The notes under the pieces were generated by a model. The model searched no databases. It was not told where the DNA came from and saw only the letters and a program-made list of their open reading frames with translations. Shown here in pieces: positions 16,209 to 58,488 of a DNA stretch of 64,000 nucleotides. The DNA is taken from assembly GCA_000146465.1 (NCBI GenBank), contig CP001944.1; one strand, given 5' to 3'. Position 1 is the first letter of the stretch, and each line of letters begins with the position of its first letter. The position numbers and the translations under genes are program-made.

Positions 16209-16270
16209 TTGGAAGGCCTGGGGTTTCCTTTCTGCATGGAGGATAAATTTTGTGGGCTCTCATCCTTGGG

Positions 16271-17314
16271 ATGGTAGTGGTAGGAAGAGAAGAGGAGTAC
16301 TTGAAGCTGGAACGCTATCTAGACATGTTTTTTAGCACAGAGACAGGAGGGATTGTCTACATAAGTGGGGTTCCGGGATCTGGGAAGACACACACGGTGT
16401 TGAGACTGATGGAAAAAAGACAGGTCAAGCATCTGTTCTTGAATGCAGCTGGGTTGAGGTTAAAAAGGGATGTTTATAAGTGGATCCTCACAAATCTATC
16501 CTGCTGCACCGATCCAAAGCGTATGTATTTAAAAAGTCTCCAGAAACACTTTATGGAATGTATTTCTCACCATGTGGTTGTGATTGATGAAGTGGATATT
16601 CTTATAGGAAGGAGCCAAGAAGTGTTATACAATTTGTTTGATATGCCATACCTGGAAAACAGCAAGCTTCTGCTGTTTGTAATTTCCAATACAATGAATC
16701 TTCCCGAGAGACTGTTTGAGCCTAAGGTTTGTAGCCGGATAGGAGGGAGAAGAGTTAACTTCACGCCATACACATCTGCACAACTGTGTGAGATGGCTGG
16801 AAGTTGCGGAGTGAACAAGGGTTGTGTTGAGCTTGTTTCAAAGAGAATTGGGGGAGTCAGTGGAGATGCTCGAAAGGTAAGGGATGTGATTGAGAGGGTT
16901 AAAGAAAGTGAGAGGGGGAGTGAGGCAGGGATATTAGATGTGGACGATATTATGAGAAAAATGTATGTTCCTGTATACACCTACTACCTTCAAAACCTGT
17001 CTTCTTATCAAAAAACCATTATATTTCTGGTTAGCGGAAGCGAGCAGGACAGAATGAAAACCAATGAACTTTACGATGAGTTTGTCTCTTTCTGCAGAAG
17101 ATCTGGAATGAAAGAAGTGGGGTTTTTTGAGTACTTGGATCTCCTCGAGGTGTTAGTGGACTACGGGCTCCTTGGAGTTAGGAGCTTGGGGAAAGAGATT
17201 CAATGTATGGTTCTGCGGGAGGAGGTTGAAAAGAGCCTTGGGTCGGACAAGGAGTATCTGGAAATAACCGGGAGGGCGGGGAGTAGAAGATGTTTTTTGA
17301 AGAACTCTGGTTAA
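16271..17314 (+). CDS. CDC6: Cdc6/Orc1-like AAA+ replication initiation ATPase.
   Basis: Walker A GVPGSGKTHTV, Walker B VVVIDEVDIL, sensor region LLLFVISNTMNLPERL, and a winged-helix-like C-terminus. First in-frame ATG at 16271; the ORF track starts at TTG 16250. Confidence 0.75.
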   Translation: MVVVGREEEYLKLERYLDMFFSTETGGIVYISGVPGSGKTHTVLRLMEKRQVKHLFLNAAGLRLKRDVYKWILTNLSCCTDPKRMYLKSLQKHFMECISHHVVVIDEVDILIGRSQEVLYNLFDMPYLENSKLLLFVISNTMNLPERLFEPKVCSRIGGRRVNFTPYTSAQLCEMAGSCGVNKGCVELVSKRIGGVSGDARKVRDVIERVKESERGSEAGILDVDDIMRKMYVPVYTYYLQNLSSYQKTIIFLVSGSEQDRMKTNELYDEFVSFCRRSGMKEVGFFEYLDLLEVLVDYGLLGVRSLGKEIQCMVLREEVEKSLGSDKEYLEITGRAGSRRCFLKNSG

Positions 17315-17339
17315 AATCCGAAGAGAGAAGACCCATCAA

Positions 17340-17822
17340 ATGGATCAAAAACTCAAGCACTTTCTTGACAACTCGAACTTCCGAAGAGACAGGAGAAACA
17401 AGAAAAAGAAAGTTGAGACGTCTGGGGGAAAGAGAGAAGCAGGACAGGAGGAGATCTTGATGATTAAGAACGGGCAGATTGTTGTCAATGATGCAAACAT
17501 GTATGTGGACACACATCGGGATGTGGAGATGGAGGTGATGGAAGACGACCGGATTGTGACATCCTCGACCTTTAGCAAGAAGAAAGGAGCACTAAGGTGG
17601 AGCAAAAAAGAGATAGAGCTGTTTTATAAGGCGTTAGAAATCTGTGGGATTGAATTTTCATTAATAAGCTCCCTTTTTCCGAACAAGGAGAGAAAGCACA
17701 TCAAAGCGAAGTACATAAAGGAAGCGAAGGTCAACCCCGAGAGGATCAACGAGGTACTGAACGAGTATAAAACATTTGATCAGGTGGCATACAACAAGCT
17801 CCGAAGCTATCTTCTTGAGTGA
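17340..17822 (+). CDS. BDP1: SANT/Myb-domain protein resembling TFIIIB B'' (Bdp1).
   Basis: RWSKKEIELFYKALEICGIEFSLISSLFPNKERKHIKAKYIKE matches the Bdp1 SANT consensus (W..E...F..AL...G.DF..I...FP.R.R..IK.K). The N-terminus is basic. Confidence 0.5.
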   Translation: MDQKLKHFLDNSNFRRDRRNKKKKVETSGGKREAGQEEILMIKNGQIVVNDANMYVDTHRDVEMEVMEDDRIVTSSTFSKKKGALRWSKKEIELFYKALEICGIEFSLISSLFPNKERKHIKAKYIKEAKVNPERINEVLNEYKTFDQVAYNKLRSYLLE

Positions 17823-17859
17823 AAAAGTTTAATAAATCTGTTCTATCCTCCTATAGGGT

Positions 17860-18549
17860 TTAGAGTAACTTATCCTTGGCAGTTGATGAGTGGATCTTTG
17901 CATTGATGATCCTGGAGATCTGAAGGAACAGCTTGTAATAAGCAAAGACAAGTAAGGTTGCAGCAGCAACCAAGGCCATTCTCATCGATATCGACATATA
18001 TCCTAGAAAAGGGTACACCCAGGAGTTGTTGAGTCTTTGGAAGTAATGGATTACCATAAAGTAGACAAACCCAAAGATGGCAAAGGTCCAGTAATGTCTT
18101 CTTGCTCCATAGATATTGACGCCTACTTGATCTATCAGAAGGAGAATAAATGGGAACAGATGGATGGACATCTCCGATATTAGCGGAGTCCTAACACCTG
18201 CCATATAAAGATCCTTATTCTTGAGAAGTGTCGGATCTATGGCATTAAGTGTCCAGAATACTGTTGTCACTAGTCCCTCCAGAGGAAGAGTAATGGAAAG
18301 AAAGTCTCTGTACACCTCTTTAATTCTTGAGGCTCCAAAATGTTTTACGCAGTAACTTAGAGACAACGTCATTATTGTCATGTAAAGACTTATCTGGGTG
18401 ATATAAATGTGGCTTCTTCCAGCAAGCTTGTCGATGAACTTCACCCACTCCTTTGGCTGGGAGTAGTCTGTTGCCCCGTAGATACAAAGTACGAAGAGGA
18501 TTATCTTGAAGATTTCCTTTGAAGCCAAAAGACGGCTAGAACTTTCCAT
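17860..18549 (-). CDS. AIG1/FAR-17a-family multipass membrane protein, tandem copy A.
   Basis: Six predicted TM segments. Motifs resemble AIG1/ADTRP (HLFPFILLLID, WVYPFLGYMS, VFWTLNAIDPTLL). Start taken at the in-frame ATG at 18549; the track uses TTG 18594. Confidence 0.6.
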   Translation of the reverse strand: MESSSRLLASKEIFKIILFVLCIYGATDYSQPKEWVKFIDKLAGRSHIYITQISLYMTIMTLSLSYCVKHFGASRIKEVYRDFLSITLPLEGLVTTVFWTLNAIDPTLLKNKDLYMAGVRTPLISEMSIHLFPFILLLIDQVGVNIYGARRHYWTFAIFGFVYFMVIHYFQRLNNSWVYPFLGYMSISMRMALVAAATLLVFAYYKLFLQISRIINAKIHSSTAKDKLL

Positions 18550-18651
18550 AAGATTATGTGGCTTTGAAGGATAAAAAGAATCTAGGAGTAACAAACTTTT
18601 AATGTATCAATGAAATGAGGAGATGTGATAATCAATGGGTCCCCGACCAAT

Positions 18652-19341
18652 TCAAAAGGATCTATTATCCTCTTTCACTGGCTCATACTTCCCATGAACC
18701 AAATCGTTAACTCCAAGAAGGCCTAAGTAACATCCAGTACCGATAAGACATGCCATAAAAATGAAGAGTATCCTCCCAATAGTGTTCATTTTCTTGAAAA
18801 TTGGATAGGGCCACTTGCCATCTACCGTGTAGAAGTACCAGGTTTCTAGGAAGTATAGAATGCCGAATCCAAATACAAAGGAAATGCATCTCTTCCGTTT
18901 TTTTAGCCTCACATCTATTTGGCATATCAGTAGGAGGAGAAGAGGAAACAAATGCTGGGAGAGCTCTGTTAATAAGCTTTCCTGGATTCCCTCACTATAA
19001 AGTTTCCTACTTTTCAGGAGAGTTGGGTTAATGAAGTACAAAATCCAAAACAGTAAGGTCACTATGCCCTCTAAGGAGAAGGAAAGAGCCAGCAAGTCTT
19101 TGTAAGTGGTTTCCAAACTCTTTCCGACTTTGGTTCTTGTGAGATACCCGATAACTGTTGTAATGATGGTTAAATACAGCGATAGTACAGTAAGGTATAC
19201 AAATTTTCCCCCAGAAGTTCGATTTATAGACTGAACTACTTGTTCCGGTAAGGCATAGTCCAACGTCCCGTACACACAAAAGCCCAGAAGTGTTACTTTC
19301 AATATCTCTTTTAGCATCCTTTTTATCTTTTCCTTTTCCAT
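18652..19341 (-). CDS. AIG1/FAR-17a-family multipass membrane protein, tandem copy B.
   Basis: It aligns by eye along its length with copy A (FCVYGTLDYALPEQV vs LCIYGATDYSQPKEW; FSLEGIVTLLFWILYFINPTLLKSRKLY vs LPLEGLVTTVFWTLNAIDPTLLKNKDLY; HLFPLLLLLICQ vs HLFPFILLLIDQ). Start taken at the ATG near 19341; the track uses TTG 19470. Confidence 0.6.
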   Translation of the reverse strand: MEKEKIKRMLKEILKVTLLGFCVYGTLDYALPEQVVQSINRTSGGKFVYLTVLSLYLTIITTVIGYLTRTKVGKSLETTYKDLLALSFSLEGIVTLLFWILYFINPTLLKSRKLYSEGIQESLLTELSQHLFPLLLLLICQIDVRLKKRKRCISFVFGFGILYFLETWYFYTVDGKWPYPIFKKMNTIGRILFIFMACLIGTGCYLGLLGVNDLVHGKYEPVKEDNRSF

Positions 19342-19500
19342 AAGGGGACGTTGTAAAACTCGAAAAATAATTAAAGCAAAGAGGGTGTGGGGATCTTTTT
19401 GTTTTGAATTTTGGAAGAGGGCGAGTAGGGATTCCTTTGGAGAGATGTTGATGGGGCCCGGATAAAACAATAAAAAAGAAGCCCTTCCAAACCTCTGGAA

Positions 19501-19971
19501 ATGTTAAAGATCTATGAGGATATAATCAATGAGGTTATATCCAGGCTTGAGCATGCCGAGGACGAGGCCAGCATTAGTAAGTCTGCTATCCATGAACTCC
19601 GAAACGAGTGGAGGGAAAGGCTTATTGAGTACACACAAGGGGAATGGGACGAGGACAGGATTGTTCAGAGAGGCGGAGAACAGGGATATCGGCACGTAAG
19701 GCCTTCAGAAGGGTCTGGAAGTGTTTTTGGGGGGAATCCCACGATGGAGAAGGAGCCTGGGATGTTTGAGGACTACGAGAGCTTGAGCGGATCGAGTGGA
19801 GACTCGGAGATAATAGGAAAGAAGGTTACCGCTGGGAACTGTATGGTCTGTCTGTATGTGAAGGTCAACATGTCAAAGGGGAAGTGGAAGTGTACATTTA
19901 AGCAGGGTTTTATCAGCATAGGGAAGATAGACTTTGTGTTTAACTCCGCCCAGGGGGAGCTTGAGTGGTGA
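19501..19971 (+). CDS. TOA1: TFIIA large subunit (Toa1-like, reduced).
   Basis: The N-terminus YEDIINEVISRLEH...ELRNEWRERL resembles the TFIIA-alpha helical N-terminus. The C-terminus CMVCLYVKVNMSKGKWKCTFKQGFISIGKIDFVFNSAQGELEW matches the TFIIA beta-barrel (C.YDKV.R.K.KWKC.LKDG......D..F.KA.G..EW). Confidence 0.6.
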   Translation: MLKIYEDIINEVISRLEHAEDEASISKSAIHELRNEWRERLIEYTQGEWDEDRIVQRGGEQGYRHVRPSEGSGSVFGGNPTMEKEPGMFEDYESLSGSSGDSEIIGKKVTAGNCMVCLYVKVNMSKGKWKCTFKQGFISIGKIDFVFNSAQGELEW

Positions 19972-20044
19972 AGAGATTTTATTTAATAAAGGATCCCTGT
20001 ATATTTGGTAAACGTTTGAGAAGTTGGCAGGATAAGCCCTGGAA

Positions 20045-21082
20045 ATGGGGATCAAGCAGTTATCCAAGCTCCTGAAAGAGAATTGTGCGAAAGGAATTAA
20101 AGAAAGGCCTTTGGCATACTACTCGTCGAAGAGAATAGCAATTGACGCTTCGATGTCGATGTACCAGTTTCTGATAGCTGTTAGATCTGATGGATCATCA
20201 CTGGGAAACGAAGACTCCCCAACATCGCATCTTGTAGGATTTTTCTACAGGACTATCCGGATGGTGGAGCTAGGAATAATACCTGTGTATGTATTTGATG
20301 GAGTACCTCCCGAGGTTAAGATGAAGGAGCTAGAGAAAAGAAGCGAAAGAAGAGCAGCAGCTGATAAAGAGTACAAAGAGGCGTCTGAAATGGGGGACAA
20401 GAAGCTTATGGAGATGTACGACAAGAGAAAGACAAAGGTGACTGGGATGCATGTTGAGGAGTGCAAGAGACTTCTTGGGCTGATGGGGATACCGTTTGAA
20501 ACAGCACCCAGCGAGGCAGAGGCATACTGTGCTTTCCTATGCAAGAAGAAGGCTGTGTACGGTGTTGCAACAGAGGACATGGATGCTCTGACATTTGGGT
20601 CACCTGTGGTGTTGAGAAACTTCAGTGGCTCCCAGAGCAGAAAGCTTCCTATTGTAGAATACAACCTCCCGGAGCTATTGGAAAGCCTTTCCTTGGAGCA
20701 CGAAGAGTTTATTGACTTGTGCATTCTCCTCGGATGTGATTACTGTGGCACATTGAAAGGAATAGGGCCTAAGAGAGCACTGGGGTTGATTAAAAAGCAT
20801 GGGGGCATTGAGAAGATTCTCCAGAGCGAGAATTTGGAGGTTCCCGACGGCTGGAGATATAGGGATGCCCAGAGGATATTTGGAAGTCTTCCGGAAATTG
20901 GAGATGCAAGAGAGTTTAATATTTCATGGGGGTCGATAGACAGAAATGGGATTGTGAGCTTCCTTGTTGAAGAGAAGGGATTTGACTTGGAAAGAGTCAA
21001 CAGAGGGATTGAAAAGCTTGTGAACTCTCGAAAGAAAGGGGTCCAAGGGCGTCTAGATGGGTTCATAGCAAGGAGCAGGTGA
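20045..21082 (+). CDS. FEN1: Flap endonuclease 1 (FEN1/Rad27).
   Basis: MGIKQLSKLL, IAIDASMSMYQFLIAV, and XPG-N/XPG-I motifs (GIPFETAPSEAEAYCAFL). ATG start. Confidence 0.95.
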   Translation: MGIKQLSKLLKENCAKGIKERPLAYYSSKRIAIDASMSMYQFLIAVRSDGSSLGNEDSPTSHLVGFFYRTIRMVELGIIPVYVFDGVPPEVKMKELEKRSERRAAADKEYKEASEMGDKKLMEMYDKRKTKVTGMHVEECKRLLGLMGIPFETAPSEAEAYCAFLCKKKAVYGVATEDMDALTFGSPVVLRNFSGSQSRKLPIVEYNLPELLESLSLEHEEFIDLCILLGCDYCGTLKGIGPKRALGLIKKHGGIEKILQSENLEVPDGWRYRDAQRIFGSLPEIGDAREFNISWGSIDRNGIVSFLVEEKGFDLERVNRGIEKLVNSRKKGVQGRLDGFIARSR

Positions 21083-44724: not shown

Positions 44725-45972
44725 ATGAACGGGCAGAAGCAAGAGAACATCATTGAGGAAAAGGATGTGGGATTTATCCTAAGCTATGGAAGAAACTATT
44801 ACGCCGAAGGAATAATGGAAAAGGAAGCAGAGATAAGGAGGTTATTTGAACAGGTGAGCCTGAAGCTTGGGACTAAAGAGGTGGAGACGGGTCTTGCACC
44901 TCCGATGTGCTGGGATCTTCTTGGAGATAGAAATAGAATTCAGAGCGAGCCCAATCTCCAGGTTGCCAGGGTTTGCAAGGTGCTTGAGGGATACCAGGAG
45001 CCAAGATACATGATAGGAATTAAGATGATAGCCAAGTTTATTGTTGGAAAAGGAAAGCGTGTGGATGCTAGCCTTATACAAGAGGGGATGAGAGTTGGGG
45101 TTGATAGAAACAAATACCAAATTATCCTACCTTTGCCTCGGAAAATAGATGCATCTGTGACTCTGATGCAAGTTGAGGAAAGACCCGACGTCACCTATAA
45201 TGACATTGGGGGATGTAAGGAGGAGATTGAGAAGATAAGAGAGGTTGTTGAGGCACCTCTTCTGAACCCCGAGAGGTTTATTGCGCTAGGGATCGACCCT
45301 CCCAAGGGGGTTCTTTTATATGGCCCCCCTGGAACTGGAAAGACTCTTTTGGCAAGAGCTGTAGCCAACAGAACAAATGCATGTTTCATAAGAGTCATAG
45401 GATCGGAGCTTGTACAGAAGTATGTTGGAGAGGGGGCAAGAATGGTTAGAGAGATATTTGCTATGGCGAAGGGAAAGAAGGCTTGTATTATTTTCTTTGA
45501 CGAGGTTGATGCATTTGGAGGAACGAGGTTTGATGACGACGATGACAATGAGGTTCAAAGAACAATGCTTGAACTAATCAACCAGTTGGACGGGTTTGAC
45601 CCACGAGGAAACATAAAGGTTCTGATGGCAACAAACAGGCCAGACACCCTCGATCCAGCACTTCTCAGGCCTGGAAGACTGGACAGGAAAGTCGAGTTTG
45701 GGCTGCCAGACCTTGAGGGAAGAACATCTATTCTGAAGATCCATGCAAAGACGATGAGCGTCGACAAGGACATCCGCTTTGATTTGATTGCAAGACTCTG
45801 TAACAACGCAACAGGTGCAGAGCTGAGGAGTGTCTGTACAGAGGCAGGGATGTTTGCCATAAGAGAAAGAAGGAAGATTGCAACTGAAGCAGACTTTCTG
45901 AAGGCTGTTGATAAAGTCATCAAGGGATACGCAAAGTTCTCCTCTACCCCAAGATATCTGACCTATAACTAA
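44725..45972 (+). CDS. RPT1: 26S proteasome regulatory ATPase subunit Rpt1 (S7).
   Basis: [49 protein letters not shown]...[30 protein letters not shown]...ATPRYLTYN is near-identical in pattern to PSMC2/Rpt1. ATG at 44725; the track starts at TTG 44692. Confidence 0.95.
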
Positions 45973-56451: not shown

Positions 56452-58488
56452 TTACTGGAAAGAGACGTCGGGCTCGTCAAGGAGAGAGAGAAGTTGTTTG
56501 ATTGACATGGGCTCTTCGTAACATATGTCGGAGAAGCAAGGATTCTGATTGCATAAGATCTCATAATCGGGAAACCCAATTTTTTCAACTTCATATGAAG
56601 ACTGGAAACATTCATAGATACCACATTCCTTCATGACCTCAATCGAGCTTGTAGTACCAAACACAAACATCTTCTTTTTGCTCTCTTCCTTGATGAATAT
56701 CTTCAGTGCTTGCAATACGGCGTTACTAAACCTAGGTCCTATGTTTACAAAGTCAATAAGTCCTTCAATATCGTCCAGGATTACTATGGCCTCTTCAGAC
56801 TTATATGCATCCATAAACTTCCCTTTTATATAGTTCACCTTCTCGTACTCGCTTAGTCCTATGATGTCTCTTGGCGAAATAATCTTTATAAACGGAAACA
56901 TCGAAGATCTTGCTGCTTTCACAGCTAGCGTTGTTTTACCTGTTCCTGGAAATCCATGGAACAGCAGAGAAGATGTGGAGTAAAGATTTGTCTTTCTTAG
57001 CTTTTGAAGGAGATTCTTGCCATGTTCGATTCCCTGGGTGAATATAGGAGTCTCGTAAAAGGTCTTTTCGAATCTGTAGAAATCCTGCTCGTTTATCCCG
57101 AAGGAAGGCTTAACCTCATCGAGTGCTTGAATAAAGTCATTCATATAGACCTTGATATTCTTGTCTCCGACAACACTCATTCTTTCTTTATCGTCCTTCT
57201 CTCCATGGACCTTTCTCTCCAAAGCAAAGGAGACAGCACTCTTTACAACTGCTGTTATCTCCGCTCCTGTATAGTTTTTCGAAAGTTTGGCTATTTTGTT
57301 TAAGTCAACGCTTTTGTCCAGGTAGTCGTGGCTTTCCATCGTTTTTGTATGTATCCTAAAGATTTCAATTCTGGATTCTTCGTCAGGAAGGGAAATCTCC
57401 AGATGAATCTCAAATCTCCCTGGCCTGAGTAGAGCCTCGTCAATCAGGTCCAGCCTATTAGTCATCCCGATAACCAGGATGTTTTCTATCGACTCCACTC
57501 CATCCATCTTACTAAGAAGTTGATTGACTACTTGGTCTCCAACTCCTGCTCCACTGCTGTTTCCTCTTCTTCTACAGATCGCGTCAATCTCATCGAATAT
57601 TATGATATGAAGATTGCTGTCCTCCTTCTTTACTTTCCATTCCTCTTCAGCATCCTTAAACAAGTTCCTAATGTTTTCTTCGCTCTGCCCAACATATTTG
57701 TTGAGAATTTCCGGGCCATTTACTATCTTTGGTGGCCTGGCATTGAGAAGAGATCCAAGTTTCCTTGCAATTAATGTCTTTCCTGTCCCTGGAGGCCCGT
57801 ACAGGATTATTCCCTTTACATGAGGTATTCCAAACTTTTTGATCACATCTGAGTCAAATGCCCTTTGTACAAATGCTCTCCTGAACATCTTTCCAAACTC
57901 CTGCTTTAGTCCTCCAATCCCAAGAGATTCAAAGTTGAAGTTTGGATCCAACAGCATGTTTTCTCTAGAGTTGTTTGACAAAACCAGCCTCTCCGAGACA
58001 GAGTTGATAAAAACTTCCGTGTTCTTCAGAAGAATTCCATACCTCTTATCCAGAGCAGTGAACATCTCCCGAACAAACACCTTAAATCCTAGGTCTCCAA
58101 TGTACAAGTAAAACTTTTGATCGATGTTAAATGGAAAGGATACATAAATGTTCTTGAACTTCTCAACAAGCTCTTTTGCATCGAGATCAACCTTTTCCAG
58201 ATTGATGATCTCTATGTCGAGCTTTAAGAGAGAGATTGGATCGCATTCAACAACATTCAGGTGTTTGACACTTATCTCATCTTTCCCAACACTTTTGTTT
58301 AGAAATTCCCTTTGAATCTTGCTCAGCTGGGCATTGCATCCATCGGTAAAGTCAAACTTAAAGGCATACTTACTGTCCACCAATATAAACTCTGAAGGAT
58401 CTAGCCCAGATGTCCTTGGGATGTATATCTTATTTATTTTTCCCCTTTCCACCTGTTCAATCTTGATGCTCCCTACAACATATTTCAT
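56452..58488 (-). CDS. SEC18: N-ethylmaleimide-sensitive factor (NSF/Sec18), a double-AAA ATPase.
   Basis: D1 domain [59 protein letters not shown] matches NSF closely. A second AAA domain (FHGFPGTGKTTLA) and an N-terminal substrate domain are present. Confidence 0.9.
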   Translation of the reverse strand: MKYVVGSIKIEQVERGKINKIYIPRTSGLDPSEFILVDSKYAFKFDFTDGCNAQLSKIQREFLNKSVGKDEISVKHLNVVECDPISLLKLDIEIINLEKVDLDAKELVEKFKNIYVSFPFNIDQKFYLYIGDLGFKVFVREMFTALDKRYGILLKNTEVFINSVSERLVLSNNSRENMLLDPNFNFESLGIGGLKQEFGKMFRRAFVQRAFDSDVIKKFGIPHVKGIILYGPPGTGKTLIARKLGSLLNARPPKIVNGPEILNKYVGQSEENIRNLFKDAEEEWKVKKEDSNLHIIIFDEIDAICRRRGNSSGAGVGDQVVNQLLSKMDGVESIENILVIGMTNRLDLIDEALLRPGRFEIHLEISLPDEESRIEIFRIHTKTMESHDYLDKSVDLNKIAKLSKNYTGAEITAVVKSAVSFALERKVHGEKDDKERMSVVGDKNIKVYMNDFIQALDEVKPSFGINEQDFYRFEKTFYETPIFTQGIEHGKNLLQKLRKTNLYSTSSLLFHGFPGTGKTTLAVKAARSSMFPFIKIISPRDIIGLSEYEKVNYIKGKFMDAYKSEEAIVILDDIEGLIDFVNIGPRFSNAVLQALKIFIKEESKKKMFVFGTTSSIEVMKECGIYECFQSSYEVEKIGFPDYEILCNQNPCFSDICYEEPMSIKQLLSLLDEPDVSFQ

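What the first reader, a model, noticed from the sequence alone, without database searches (positions are those of the whole stretch)
17860..19341. Tandem duplicated AIG1/FAR-17a-family membrane proteins.
Two adjacent same-strand genes encode multipass proteins that align with each other along their length. Both carry AIG1/ADTRP-like blocks (HLFP[FL]ILLLI, WVYPFL, FW.L....PTLL). Tandem paralogs are uncommon in such a compact genome. The AIG1/ADTRP family has been reported as lipid (FAHFA) hydrolases, and retaining two copies hints at a lipid-scavenging or remodelling role.
Basis: partly seen in the sequence, partly recalled or inferred. Interest (0 to 1): 0.5.

Follow-up and report, generated by a model that had tools for sequence, protein, structure and literature searches.

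The report
Tandem AIG1-family membrane enzyme genes
Two neighbouring genes of the microsporidian parasite Encephalitozoon intestinalis encode old duplicate copies of an AIG1/ADTRP-type six-helix membrane enzyme with both catalytic residues intact; the finding is real but ordinary, because both genes already carry this family label in public databases.

Summary
The window is E. intestinalis ATCC 50506 chromosome III. The two minus-strand genes are Eint_030940 (17860-18549) and Eint_030950 (18652-19341). Each encodes 229 aa, and they lie 102 bp apart.

- **Family:** both match Pfam PF04750 Far-17a_AIG1 far above threshold (91 and 141 bits; cut-off 24.5).
- **Paralogy:** they are 34% identical over 226 aa (E 6e-45). 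A shuffle that keeps the transmembrane layout still gives z = 16.
- **Catalytic residues:** T51 and H130 in both copies align with human AIG1 T43/H134. They are invariant in all 16 close microsporidian homologues.
- **Age:** the same pair, in the same gene order, occurs in three other named Encephalitozoon species, two unnamed relatives and Ordospora colligata. The Vairimorpha apis locus examined has one copy.
- **Selection:** both copies are under purifying selection (ω about 0.07 and 0.28).

They are most likely Thr/His acyl-ester lipid hydrolases or transacylases. FAHFA specificity and a lipid-scavenging role are untested. This is an uncharacterised member of a known family, of low interest.

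The parts
17860..18549 (-). Gene A = Eint_030940. 229-aa AIG1/ADTRP-family (PF04750) six-TM protein; stop codon included. This is the slower-evolving paralogue.
   Evidence: ATG ORF. 100% identical to Eint_030940. PF04750 E 7.7e-26, 91.3 bits. AF2 model pLDDT 87.4, pTM 0.83.
18652..19341 (-). Gene B = Eint_030950. 229-aa AIG1/ADTRP-family (PF04750) six-TM protein; stop codon included. This is the faster-evolving paralogue.
18397..18399 (-). Codon ACC = Thr51 of gene A, the predicted catalytic nucleophile on TM2.
   Evidence: Codon verified. Aligns with human AIG1 T43 and ADTRP T47. Invariant in 16 microsporidian homologues. Thr in 147 and Ser in 7 of 154 aligned family members.
18160..18162 (-). 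Codon CAT = His130 of gene A, the predicted catalytic base on TM4.
   Evidence: Codon verified. Aligns with human AIG1 H134 in the 28-sequence alignment. His in 161 of 163 aligned family members.
19189..19191 (-). Codon ACT = Thr51 of gene B, the predicted catalytic nucleophile on TM2.
18952..18954 (-). Codon CAT = His130 of gene B, the predicted catalytic base on TM4.
18550..18651 (-). 102-bp spacer between the stop codon of gene B and the start codon of gene A.
   Evidence: Sequence read directly. Spacer length computed. No function tested.
19342..19500 (.). 159-bp divergent intergenic region between gene B and the TFIIA gene on the plus strand.
   Evidence: Sequence read. TFIIA Pfam hit for 19501-19971. 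The same arrangement is seen in all related species.

Best explanation
Eint_030940 and Eint_030950 are two functional paralogues of the AIG1/ADTRP family (Pfam PF04750), which belongs to the 'ATGY' superfamily of six-TM membrane enzymes.

**Shown:**
- Each is a 229-aa protein with six transmembrane helices.
- Each keeps the family's Thr (T51, on TM2) and His (H130, at a Pro-kinked point of TM4).
- The two genes arose by a tandem duplication that predates the split between Encephalitozoon and Ordospora.
- Both copies have since been kept under purifying selection, in unchanged gene order.
- Copy B accumulates amino-acid changes about four times faster than copy A.

**Inferred by homology to AIG1/ADTRP and TMEM164:**
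- The His activates the Thr hydroxyl, which attacks the ester carbonyl of a membrane lipid to form an acyl-enzyme.
- The acyl group then passes to water (hydrolase) or to a lipid acceptor (transacylase).
- The two copies have probably divided up substrates or cellular locations.

**Speculative:** a role in processing host-derived lipids in a parasite with reduced lipid metabolism, and any specificity for FAHFAs.
For: - **Family:** PF04750 at 91 and 141 bits against a cut-off of 24.5, covering nearly the whole 206-position profile.
- **Paralogy:** 34% identity, E 6e-45; z = 16-52 against shuffles.
- **Catalytic pair:** human AIG1 and ADTRP sequences were verified as exact database entries. T43/H134 and T47/H131 are the residues on which hydrolase activity depends (PMC8123165). 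In a 28-sequence alignment T43 = T51 and H134 = H130 for both copies. Both residues are invariant in the 16 microsporidian homologues.
- **Age of the pair:** the same order, FEN1-TFIIA-B-A-Myb-Cdc6, is seen in E. cuniculi, E. romaleae, E. hellem, two unnamed relatives and Ordospora colligata. In NJ bootstraps the A and B groups separate in 288 of 300 replicates, and V. apis falls outside both in 275 of 300.
- **Selection:** the only pair with unsaturated dS is E. romaleae versus the SRR23946965 species. Copy A: dN 0.029, dS 0.40, ω 0.07. Copy B: dN 0.112, dS 0.40, ω 0.28. Of 216 ungapped columns, 75 are invariant in A and 44 in B, with 10 fixed A/B differences.
Against: - No biochemical, expression or localisation data exist for any microsporidian member, and none turned up in the paper library. 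The yeast member YHR140W also appears only in large-scale screens.
- Identity to human AIG1 is only 22-26% over partial alignments, so substrate cannot be transferred.
- I could not measure the Thr-His distance, because model coordinates are not exposed.
- Small alignments put the microsporidian His two residues away from human H134. The H-to-H match rests on bridging sequences.
- The microsporidian proteins carry Glu91 and Glu126 where human AIG1 and ADTRP have Gly or Ser and Asn. The active-site chemistry may therefore differ.
- The NJ phylogeny uses a simple distance model. Support for one clade holding all A-type sequences is only 59%.
Confidence: 0.72

Rival explanations
1. The proteins are acyltransferases or transacylases like TMEM164 and GPC1, not hydrolases. 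The acyl-Thr intermediate would be resolved by a lysolipid acceptor, remodelling phospholipids taken from the host.
For: - The closest solved structure by fold is TMEM164, caught as an acyl-enzyme intermediate (PMC12830759).
- The superfamily contains both hydrolases and acyltransferases on one scaffold.
- The conserved acidic residue four positions before the His (E126-x3-H130; E, D or N in 148 of 165 relatives) has the same spacing as TMEM164 Y177/H181. Both of those residues are needed for TMEM164 function. Whether the two positions are structurally equivalent was not tested.
Against: - The sequences sit in PF04750 with a Thr nucleophile, as in the characterised hydrolases AIG1 and ADTRP. 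TMEM164 and GPC1 use Cys.
- Identity to TMEM164 is only 10%.
- No acceptor-binding features could be assessed.
Confidence: 0.2
2. Copy B (Eint_030950) is a relaxed, degenerating or non-catalytic duplicate, and only copy A is a working enzyme.
For: - B evolves about four times faster at non-synonymous sites: ω 0.28 against 0.07.
- B has fewer invariant columns, 44 against 75.
- B carries lineage-specific indels: a 7-aa insertion in E. hellem, and an internal repeat plus a C-terminal extension in the SRR21633403 species.
Against: - ω is still well below 1.
- The ORF is intact in all seven species.
- T51, H130, E91 and E126 are invariant in all B orthologues aligned. The Ordospora B copy, aligned, keeps T, H and E91 but has Asp at position 126.
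- In E. intestinalis, B scores higher against the Pfam model than A: 141 against 91 bits.
Confidence: 0.05
3. The proteins have a mainly non-enzymatic membrane role, for example as a scaffold, regulator or transporter. The conserved Thr and His would then be structural.
For: - Vertebrate AIG1 and ADTRP also have reported non-enzymatic roles, such as the Pirh2 interaction and TFPI regulation.
- No activity data exist for any fungal or microsporidian member.
Against: - Near-universal conservation of exactly the two residues whose mutation abolishes AIG1 and ADTRP activity: Thr or Ser in 154 of 154 and His in 161 of 163 aligned relatives.
- The binding partners of the vertebrate proteins have no known microsporidian counterparts (my own knowledge, not tested here).
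Confidence: 0.05

Closest known systems
Human AIG1 (Q9NVV5) and ADTRP (Q96IZ2): atypical integral-membrane threonine hydrolases of FAHFA lipids, Pfam PF04750
   Same: - Same Pfam family, well above threshold.
- Similar length (229 aa against 238 and 230 aa) and six-TM layout.
- The catalytic Thr (T43/T47) and His (H134/H131) are conserved and aligned.
- The FW motif of TM3 and the W-x-Y-P motif before TM6 are shared.
   Different: - Only about 20% identical overall.
- The His lies three residues before the conserved Pro (H-L-F-P), against five in the human proteins (H-T-T-V-L-P).
- The microsporidian proteins have Glu91 on TM3 and Glu126 four residues before the His. Human AIG1 has Gly98 and Asn130 at those positions.
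- They lack the second His of the animal N-H-x-x-H motif.
- Substrate and activity are untested, and no androgen-type regulation applies.
Human TMEM164 (PDB 9lw1; Pfam PF14808): Cys/His acyltransferase that remodels polyunsaturated ether phospholipids
   Different: - 10% identity.
- A Cys nucleophile rather than Thr.
- Seven TM helices, a dimer and a bound metal ion.
- A different Pfam family.
- Foldseek did not detect the relationship.
Saccharomyces cerevisiae YHR140W (P38842): the yeast PF04750 member
   Same: It is cited as the fungal representative of the AIG1/ADTRP branch with the Thr/His pair. Like the microsporidian proteins, it is functionally uncharacterised.
   Different: I did not align it here because the sequence was not retrieved. 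From memory, which I did not check, it is single-copy in yeast; the genes here form a conserved tandem pair.
Other microsporidian PF04750 proteins: Ordospora colligata CWI42_030980/030990, Vairimorpha apis EQB62355, Spraguea lophii SLOPH_1866/1693/EPR79565, Pancytospora philotis, Hamiltosporidium, Astathelohania contejeani
   Same: Same family, and the same T...H-L-F-P signature. Ordospora has the identical tandem pair in the same gene order.
   Different: The V. apis locus has a single copy beside the 14-3-3 gene, with no second copy within 6 kb. Spraguea, Pancytospora and Hamiltosporidium have several copies, but I did not establish how they relate to the A and B clades.

Membership tests
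AIG1/ADTRP family (Pfam PF04750 Far-17a_AIG1) | Full-length match to the PF04750 profile above the gathering score | tested here: met
   Gene A scores 91.3 bits (residues 15-210, profile 4-203 of 206). Gene B scores 141 bits (residues 14-212, profile 3-205 of 206). The cut-off is 24.5.
AIG1/ADTRP family (Pfam PF04750 Far-17a_AIG1) | Integral membrane protein of about 230 aa with six transmembrane helices | tested here: met
   AF2 models have pLDDT 88.8 and 87.4. The long helices are 2-26, 45/50-67/71, 72/74-104, 123-141, 150-174 and 187-217/221. A crude hydropathy scan agrees in part.
AIG1/ADTRP family (Pfam PF04750 Far-17a_AIG1) | Catalytic Thr on TM2, equivalent to AIG1 T43 and ADTRP T47 | tested here: met
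   T51 of both copies falls in the same alignment column as T43 and T47 in every alignment made. It is invariant in 16 microsporidian sequences.
AIG1/ADTRP family (Pfam PF04750 Far-17a_AIG1) | Catalytic His on TM4, equivalent to AIG1 H134 and ADTRP H131 | tested here: met
   H130 of both copies aligns with H134 in the 28-sequence L-INS-i alignment. Sequences with N-H-x-x-H-T-x-P bridge the two forms: Strongyloides P0183 and Spraguea P0096. A 9-sequence MAFFT run and hmmalign anchored on the Pro instead and shifted the His by two residues. The call therefore depends on the alignment. His is present in 161 of 163 relatives.
AIG1/ADTRP family (Pfam PF04750 Far-17a_AIG1) | Thr and His side chains adjacent in the folded protein | not testable with these tools
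   Structure prediction returns no coordinates. I only know which helix each residue lies on.
AIG1/ADTRP family (Pfam PF04750 Far-17a_AIG1) | FAHFA hydrolase activity and fluorophosphonate reactivity | not testable with these tools
   This needs biochemistry. No report for any microsporidian or fungal member was found.
ATGY superfamily (AIG1/TMEM164/GPC1/YwaF/YpjA) | Shared six-TM core fold detectable by structure comparison | tested here: met
TMEM164 / GPC1 acyltransferase branches | Cys nucleophile on TM2 and a match to PF14808 or PF10998 | tested here: not met
   The nucleophile position is Thr. No PF14808 or PF10998 hit appears even at E up to 10.
Tandem gene duplicate | Adjacent, same strand, homologous beyond chance, and shared with related genomes | tested here: met
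   The genes are 102 bp apart on the same strand. Similarity is E 6e-45, with z at least 16. The pair is present in the same gene order in six other genomes.

The most novel reading that the evidence does not exclude
The microsporidian AIG1-like proteins may not be FAHFA hydrolases. They could be a specialised A/B pair of Thr/His transacylases that re-tailor host-derived phospholipids.

Three observations leave this open:
- They carry two membrane-embedded acidic residues, Glu91 and Glu126, that vertebrate AIG1 and ADTRP lack. Glu126 lies four residues before the His, the same spacing as the functionally required Y177/H181 pair of TMEM164.
- TMEM164 is a dimer with a metal-assisted active site. 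A similar metal-assisted or charge-relay site, and possibly an A/B heterodimer, cannot be excluded.
- The family is kept in several copies in a number of highly reduced microsporidian genomes, which would fit a core role in lipid salvage.
Probability: 0.12. Interest if true: 0.5.

Novelty: new member of a known kind. Interest (0 to 1): 0.2.

Why it matters
As it stands this matters little. It confirms an existing automatic annotation and adds three points:
- Both copies keep the catalytic Thr/His pair.
- The duplication is old.
- The two copies evolve at different rates.

The modest wider interest is as follows. From general knowledge, not tested here, microsporidia have lost most lipid biosynthesis and depend on host lipids. 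Yet this family of unusual membrane-embedded threonine enzymes is kept, often in more than one copy, in genomes of about 2,000 genes. No fungal or microsporidian member has a known substrate. These small intron-free genes would be convenient for working out what the non-animal branch of the family does, and for asking whether the enzymes could be drug targets, since covalent AIG1 inhibitors exist (my own knowledge).

Tried and rejected
- **Sequence search of PDB chains** with gene B found nothing meaningful; the best E was 0.98.
- **The afdb50 fold library** was not available, so I could not compare directly with the AlphaFold models of AIG1 or YHR140W.
- **A 9-sequence MAFFT alignment and an hmmalign run** to the microsporidian profile both placed human H134 opposite Ser128 and the microsporidian His opposite T136. 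I briefly considered that the His had moved. I rejected this once a broader alignment, with nematode and Spraguea sequences carrying N-H-x-x-H-T-x-P, put His on His and Asn130 on Glu126.
- **dN/dS between the two paralogues** is uninformative. The NG86 dS is undefined and the YN00 dS is 1.7.
- **Most between-species comparisons** are also saturated (dS above 1 or undefined). Only E. romaleae against the SRR23946965 species is usable.
A full copy-number census across Microsporidia was therefore not possible.
- **Literature searches** for microsporidian AIG1 or FAR-17a proteins and for the locus tags returned nothing.
- **The longer TTG-start ORFs** of 244 and 272 aa were rejected as artefacts of the bacterial start rule. 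The deposited proteins and all orthologues start at the ATG.
- **A second V. apis copy** near the single gene was sought with tblastn and not found within about 6 kb on either side.

Full report
**Where the window comes from and what is at the site**

Read from their ATG codons, they run 17860-18549 and 18652-19341 and encode 229 aa each. Both products are 100% identical to deposited proteins of Encephalitozoon intestinalis ATCC 50506: Eint_030940 (called gene A here) and Eint_030950 (gene B). UniRef already names both 'FAR-17a/AIG1-like protein'. The window is therefore part of chromosome III of this microsporidian. The longer TTG-start ORFs are artefacts of the tool's bacterial start rule.

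The neighbouring genes are ordinary housekeeping genes:
- a Cdc6/Orc1-like AAA protein (16250-17314, +);
- a Myb-like protein (17340-17822, +);
- TFIIA (19501-19971, +);
- FEN1 (20045-21082, +).

Gene A ends 37 bp from the convergent Myb gene. A and B are 102 bp apart. B shares a 159-bp divergent spacer with TFIIA.

**Checking the observation**

The two proteins align over 226 residues with two gaps, 34% identity and E 6e-45. The local alignment score is 374. Whole-sequence shuffles average 36. Shuffles confined to 5-residue windows, which preserve the hydrophobic layout, average 70 with a maximum of 126, giving z = 16. The quoted motifs are present with minor differences between the copies. 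In an all-against-all comparison of the 81 ATG-ORFs of at least 100 aa in the window, this is the only tandem paralogue pair. The other strong pair is two AAA ATPases about 10 kb apart.

**Family membership**

Both proteins match Pfam PF04750 (Far-17a_AIG1) over almost the whole 206-position profile, at 91.3 and 141 bits against a cut-off of 24.5. A profile of 16 microsporidian homologues, searched against 1.84 billion representative proteins, found 666 relatives at E ≤ 0.001 and 215 at E ≤ 1e-10.

**Catalytic residues**

The literature states that hydrolase activity depends on T43 and H134 in AIG1 and on T47 and H131 in ADTRP (PMC8123165). I confirmed that the human sequences I used are the exact database entries NP_057192.2 and NP_116133.1.

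The Thr is unambiguous. T51 of both copies falls in the T43/T47 column in every alignment.

The His needed care. A 9-sequence MAFFT alignment and an hmmalign run both anchored on the conserved Pro. They placed the microsporidian His two residues away from H134. In a 28-sequence L-INS-i alignment, H130 aligns with H134 and Glu126 with Asn130. Two sequences bridge the forms: a Strongyloides ADTRP-like protein (N-H-S-I-H-T-L-P) and a Spraguea lophii protein (N-H-C-I-H-T-I-P). The human proteins simply have two extra residues between His and Pro.

Across 165 aligned relatives, the nucleophile position is Thr in 147 and Ser in 7 of 154 aligned sequences. The His is present in 161 of 163. T51 and H130 are invariant in all 16 close homologues of both paralogue groups.

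**Structure**

AlphaFold2 models built from the 16-sequence alignments are confident: pLDDT 88.8 and pTM 0.85 for B, and 87.4 and 0.83 for A. The two models have the same architecture, with six long helices. T51 sits near the start of the second helix. H130 sits at a break in the fourth, just before Pro133. This is the layout described for the AIG1/TMEM164/GPC1/YwaF/YpjA ('ATGY') superfamily: a variable nucleophile on TM2 opposite an invariant His on TM4 (bioRxiv 10.1101/2022.07.06.498872).

**History of the duplication**

The same tandem pair sits in the same gene order (PI3/4-kinase, unknown, FEN1, TFIIA, B, A, Myb, Cdc6, unknown, 14-3-3, MscS-like) in six other genomes:
- E. cuniculi;
- E. 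romaleae;
- E. hellem;
- two unnamed relatives assembled from SRR23946965 and SRR21633403;
- Ordospora colligata.

All 14 ORFs are intact.

In neighbour-joining bootstraps the B group is recovered in 253 of 300 replicates. The A group, without one divergent metagenomic sequence, is recovered in 262 of 300. A is separated from B in 288 of 300. Vairimorpha apis has a single copy beside its 14-3-3 gene, with no second copy within about 6 kb. It falls outside both groups in 275 of 300 replicates.

The duplication therefore predates the Encephalitozoon-Ordospora split. It may postdate the split from the Vairimorpha lineage, but that second point rests on a simple distance tree and on one locus.

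Other microsporidia also hold several family members: Spraguea lophii has three, Pancytospora philotis has at least two distinct ones (one under two accessions), and Hamiltosporidium magnivora has several. Keeping more than one copy is therefore not special to this genome.

**Selection**

Synonymous sites are saturated between the paralogues and between most species. The one informative comparison is E. romaleae against the SRR23946965 species:

| Copy | dN | dS | ω |
|---|---|---|---|
| A | 0.029 | 0.40 | 0.07 |
| B | 0.112 | 0.40 | 0.28 |

Both copies are under purifying selection, and B changes about four times faster. In line with this, 75 of 216 ungapped columns are invariant among the seven A orthologues against 44 among the B orthologues. 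There are ten fixed A/B differences, for example H47/F47, P89/S89, N102/Y102 and H152/C152.

**How it most likely works**

Two things are shown: membership of the AIG1/ADTRP family, and an intact Thr/His pair on the expected helices in both copies. By analogy with AIG1 and ADTRP, and with the acyl-Cys intermediate seen in TMEM164 (PMC12830759), His130 would activate Thr51 to attack a lipid ester. The resulting acyl-enzyme would then be resolved by water or by a lipid acceptor.

I favour a hydrolase because the nucleophile is Thr and the family is PF04750. A transacylase is a serious rival, which I put at about 0.2. FAHFA specificity is not supported by anything here. Division of substrates or locations between A and B is inferred from their long co-retention and unequal rates.

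**A difference from the animal enzymes**

The microsporidian proteins, and most of the 165 relatives, carry Glu at position 91 on TM3 (129 of 165). They also carry Glu, Asp or Asn four residues before the His (148 of 165). Human AIG1 and ADTRP have Gly or Ser and Asn at these positions. In TMEM164 the residue four before the His (Y177) and a Glu (E106) are needed for function and lie at a metal site. Whether the microsporidian acidic residues play a similar part is unknown.

**Verdict**

The genes are already labelled with this family in public databases, and the biology remains inferred. I rate this an uncharacterised member of a known family, with low interest (0.2).

Noticed in passing
window 18277-18279 and 18172-18174 (gene A); 19069-19071 and 18964-18966 (gene B): Two membrane-embedded Glu residues, E91 and E126, are invariant in the 16 close microsporidian homologues and common in the wider family. 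E91 is Glu in 129 of 165 relatives. Position 126 is Glu, Asp or Asn in 148 of 165. Human AIG1 and ADTRP have Gly or Ser and Asn at these positions. E126 lies four residues before the catalytic His, the same spacing as Y177/H181 in TMEM164.
   Followed up: partly
window 18943-18954 (gene B) and 18151-18162 (gene A): The catalytic His lies three residues before the conserved Pro (H-L-F-P) in microsporidia and most relatives, but five residues before it in human AIG1 and ADTRP (H-T-T-V-L-P). Small alignments therefore misplace the His by two positions.
   Followed up: yes
L009:3001-3807 (B orthologue in the SRR21633403 assembly): This B copy is 268 aa long. It has an N-terminal extension, an internal 7-residue repeat (LGYLTRILGYLTNL) in the loop after TM2, and a C-terminal extension that looks like an extra hydrophobic segment.
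   Followed up: no
L008:3001-3699 (E. hellem B orthologue, EHEL_030960): The E. hellem B copy has a 7-aa insertion (DPQGSAF) before the last helix and a 2-aa deletion in the TM3-TM4 loop. It is only about 50% identical to the E. intestinalis B copy. The A copies of the same two species are 64% identical.
   Followed up: partly
L004:6001-6669 and L005:5684-6352 (Vairimorpha apis): The single V. apis family member lies a few kb from a 14-3-3 gene, as the pair does in Encephalitozoon and Ordospora. This suggests the locus is ancestral, although the FEN1, TFIIA, Myb and Cdc6 neighbours are absent there.
   Followed up: partly
window 44725-45972 (+) and 56452-58488 (-): These are the only other strong paralogue pair in the window: 38.5% identity over 244 aa. 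Both are AAA ATPases, one a proteasome Rpt-type subunit with a PRS7 OB domain and the other a two-domain Cdc48-like protein. They are ordinary ancient paralogues, not a tandem pair.
   Followed up: yes
window 16250-21082: The gene order Cdc6/Orc1-like, Myb-like, A, B, TFIIA, FEN1 is packed very tightly, with spacers of 25-159 bp. It is conserved without rearrangement from E. intestinalis to Ordospora colligata.
   Followed up: yes
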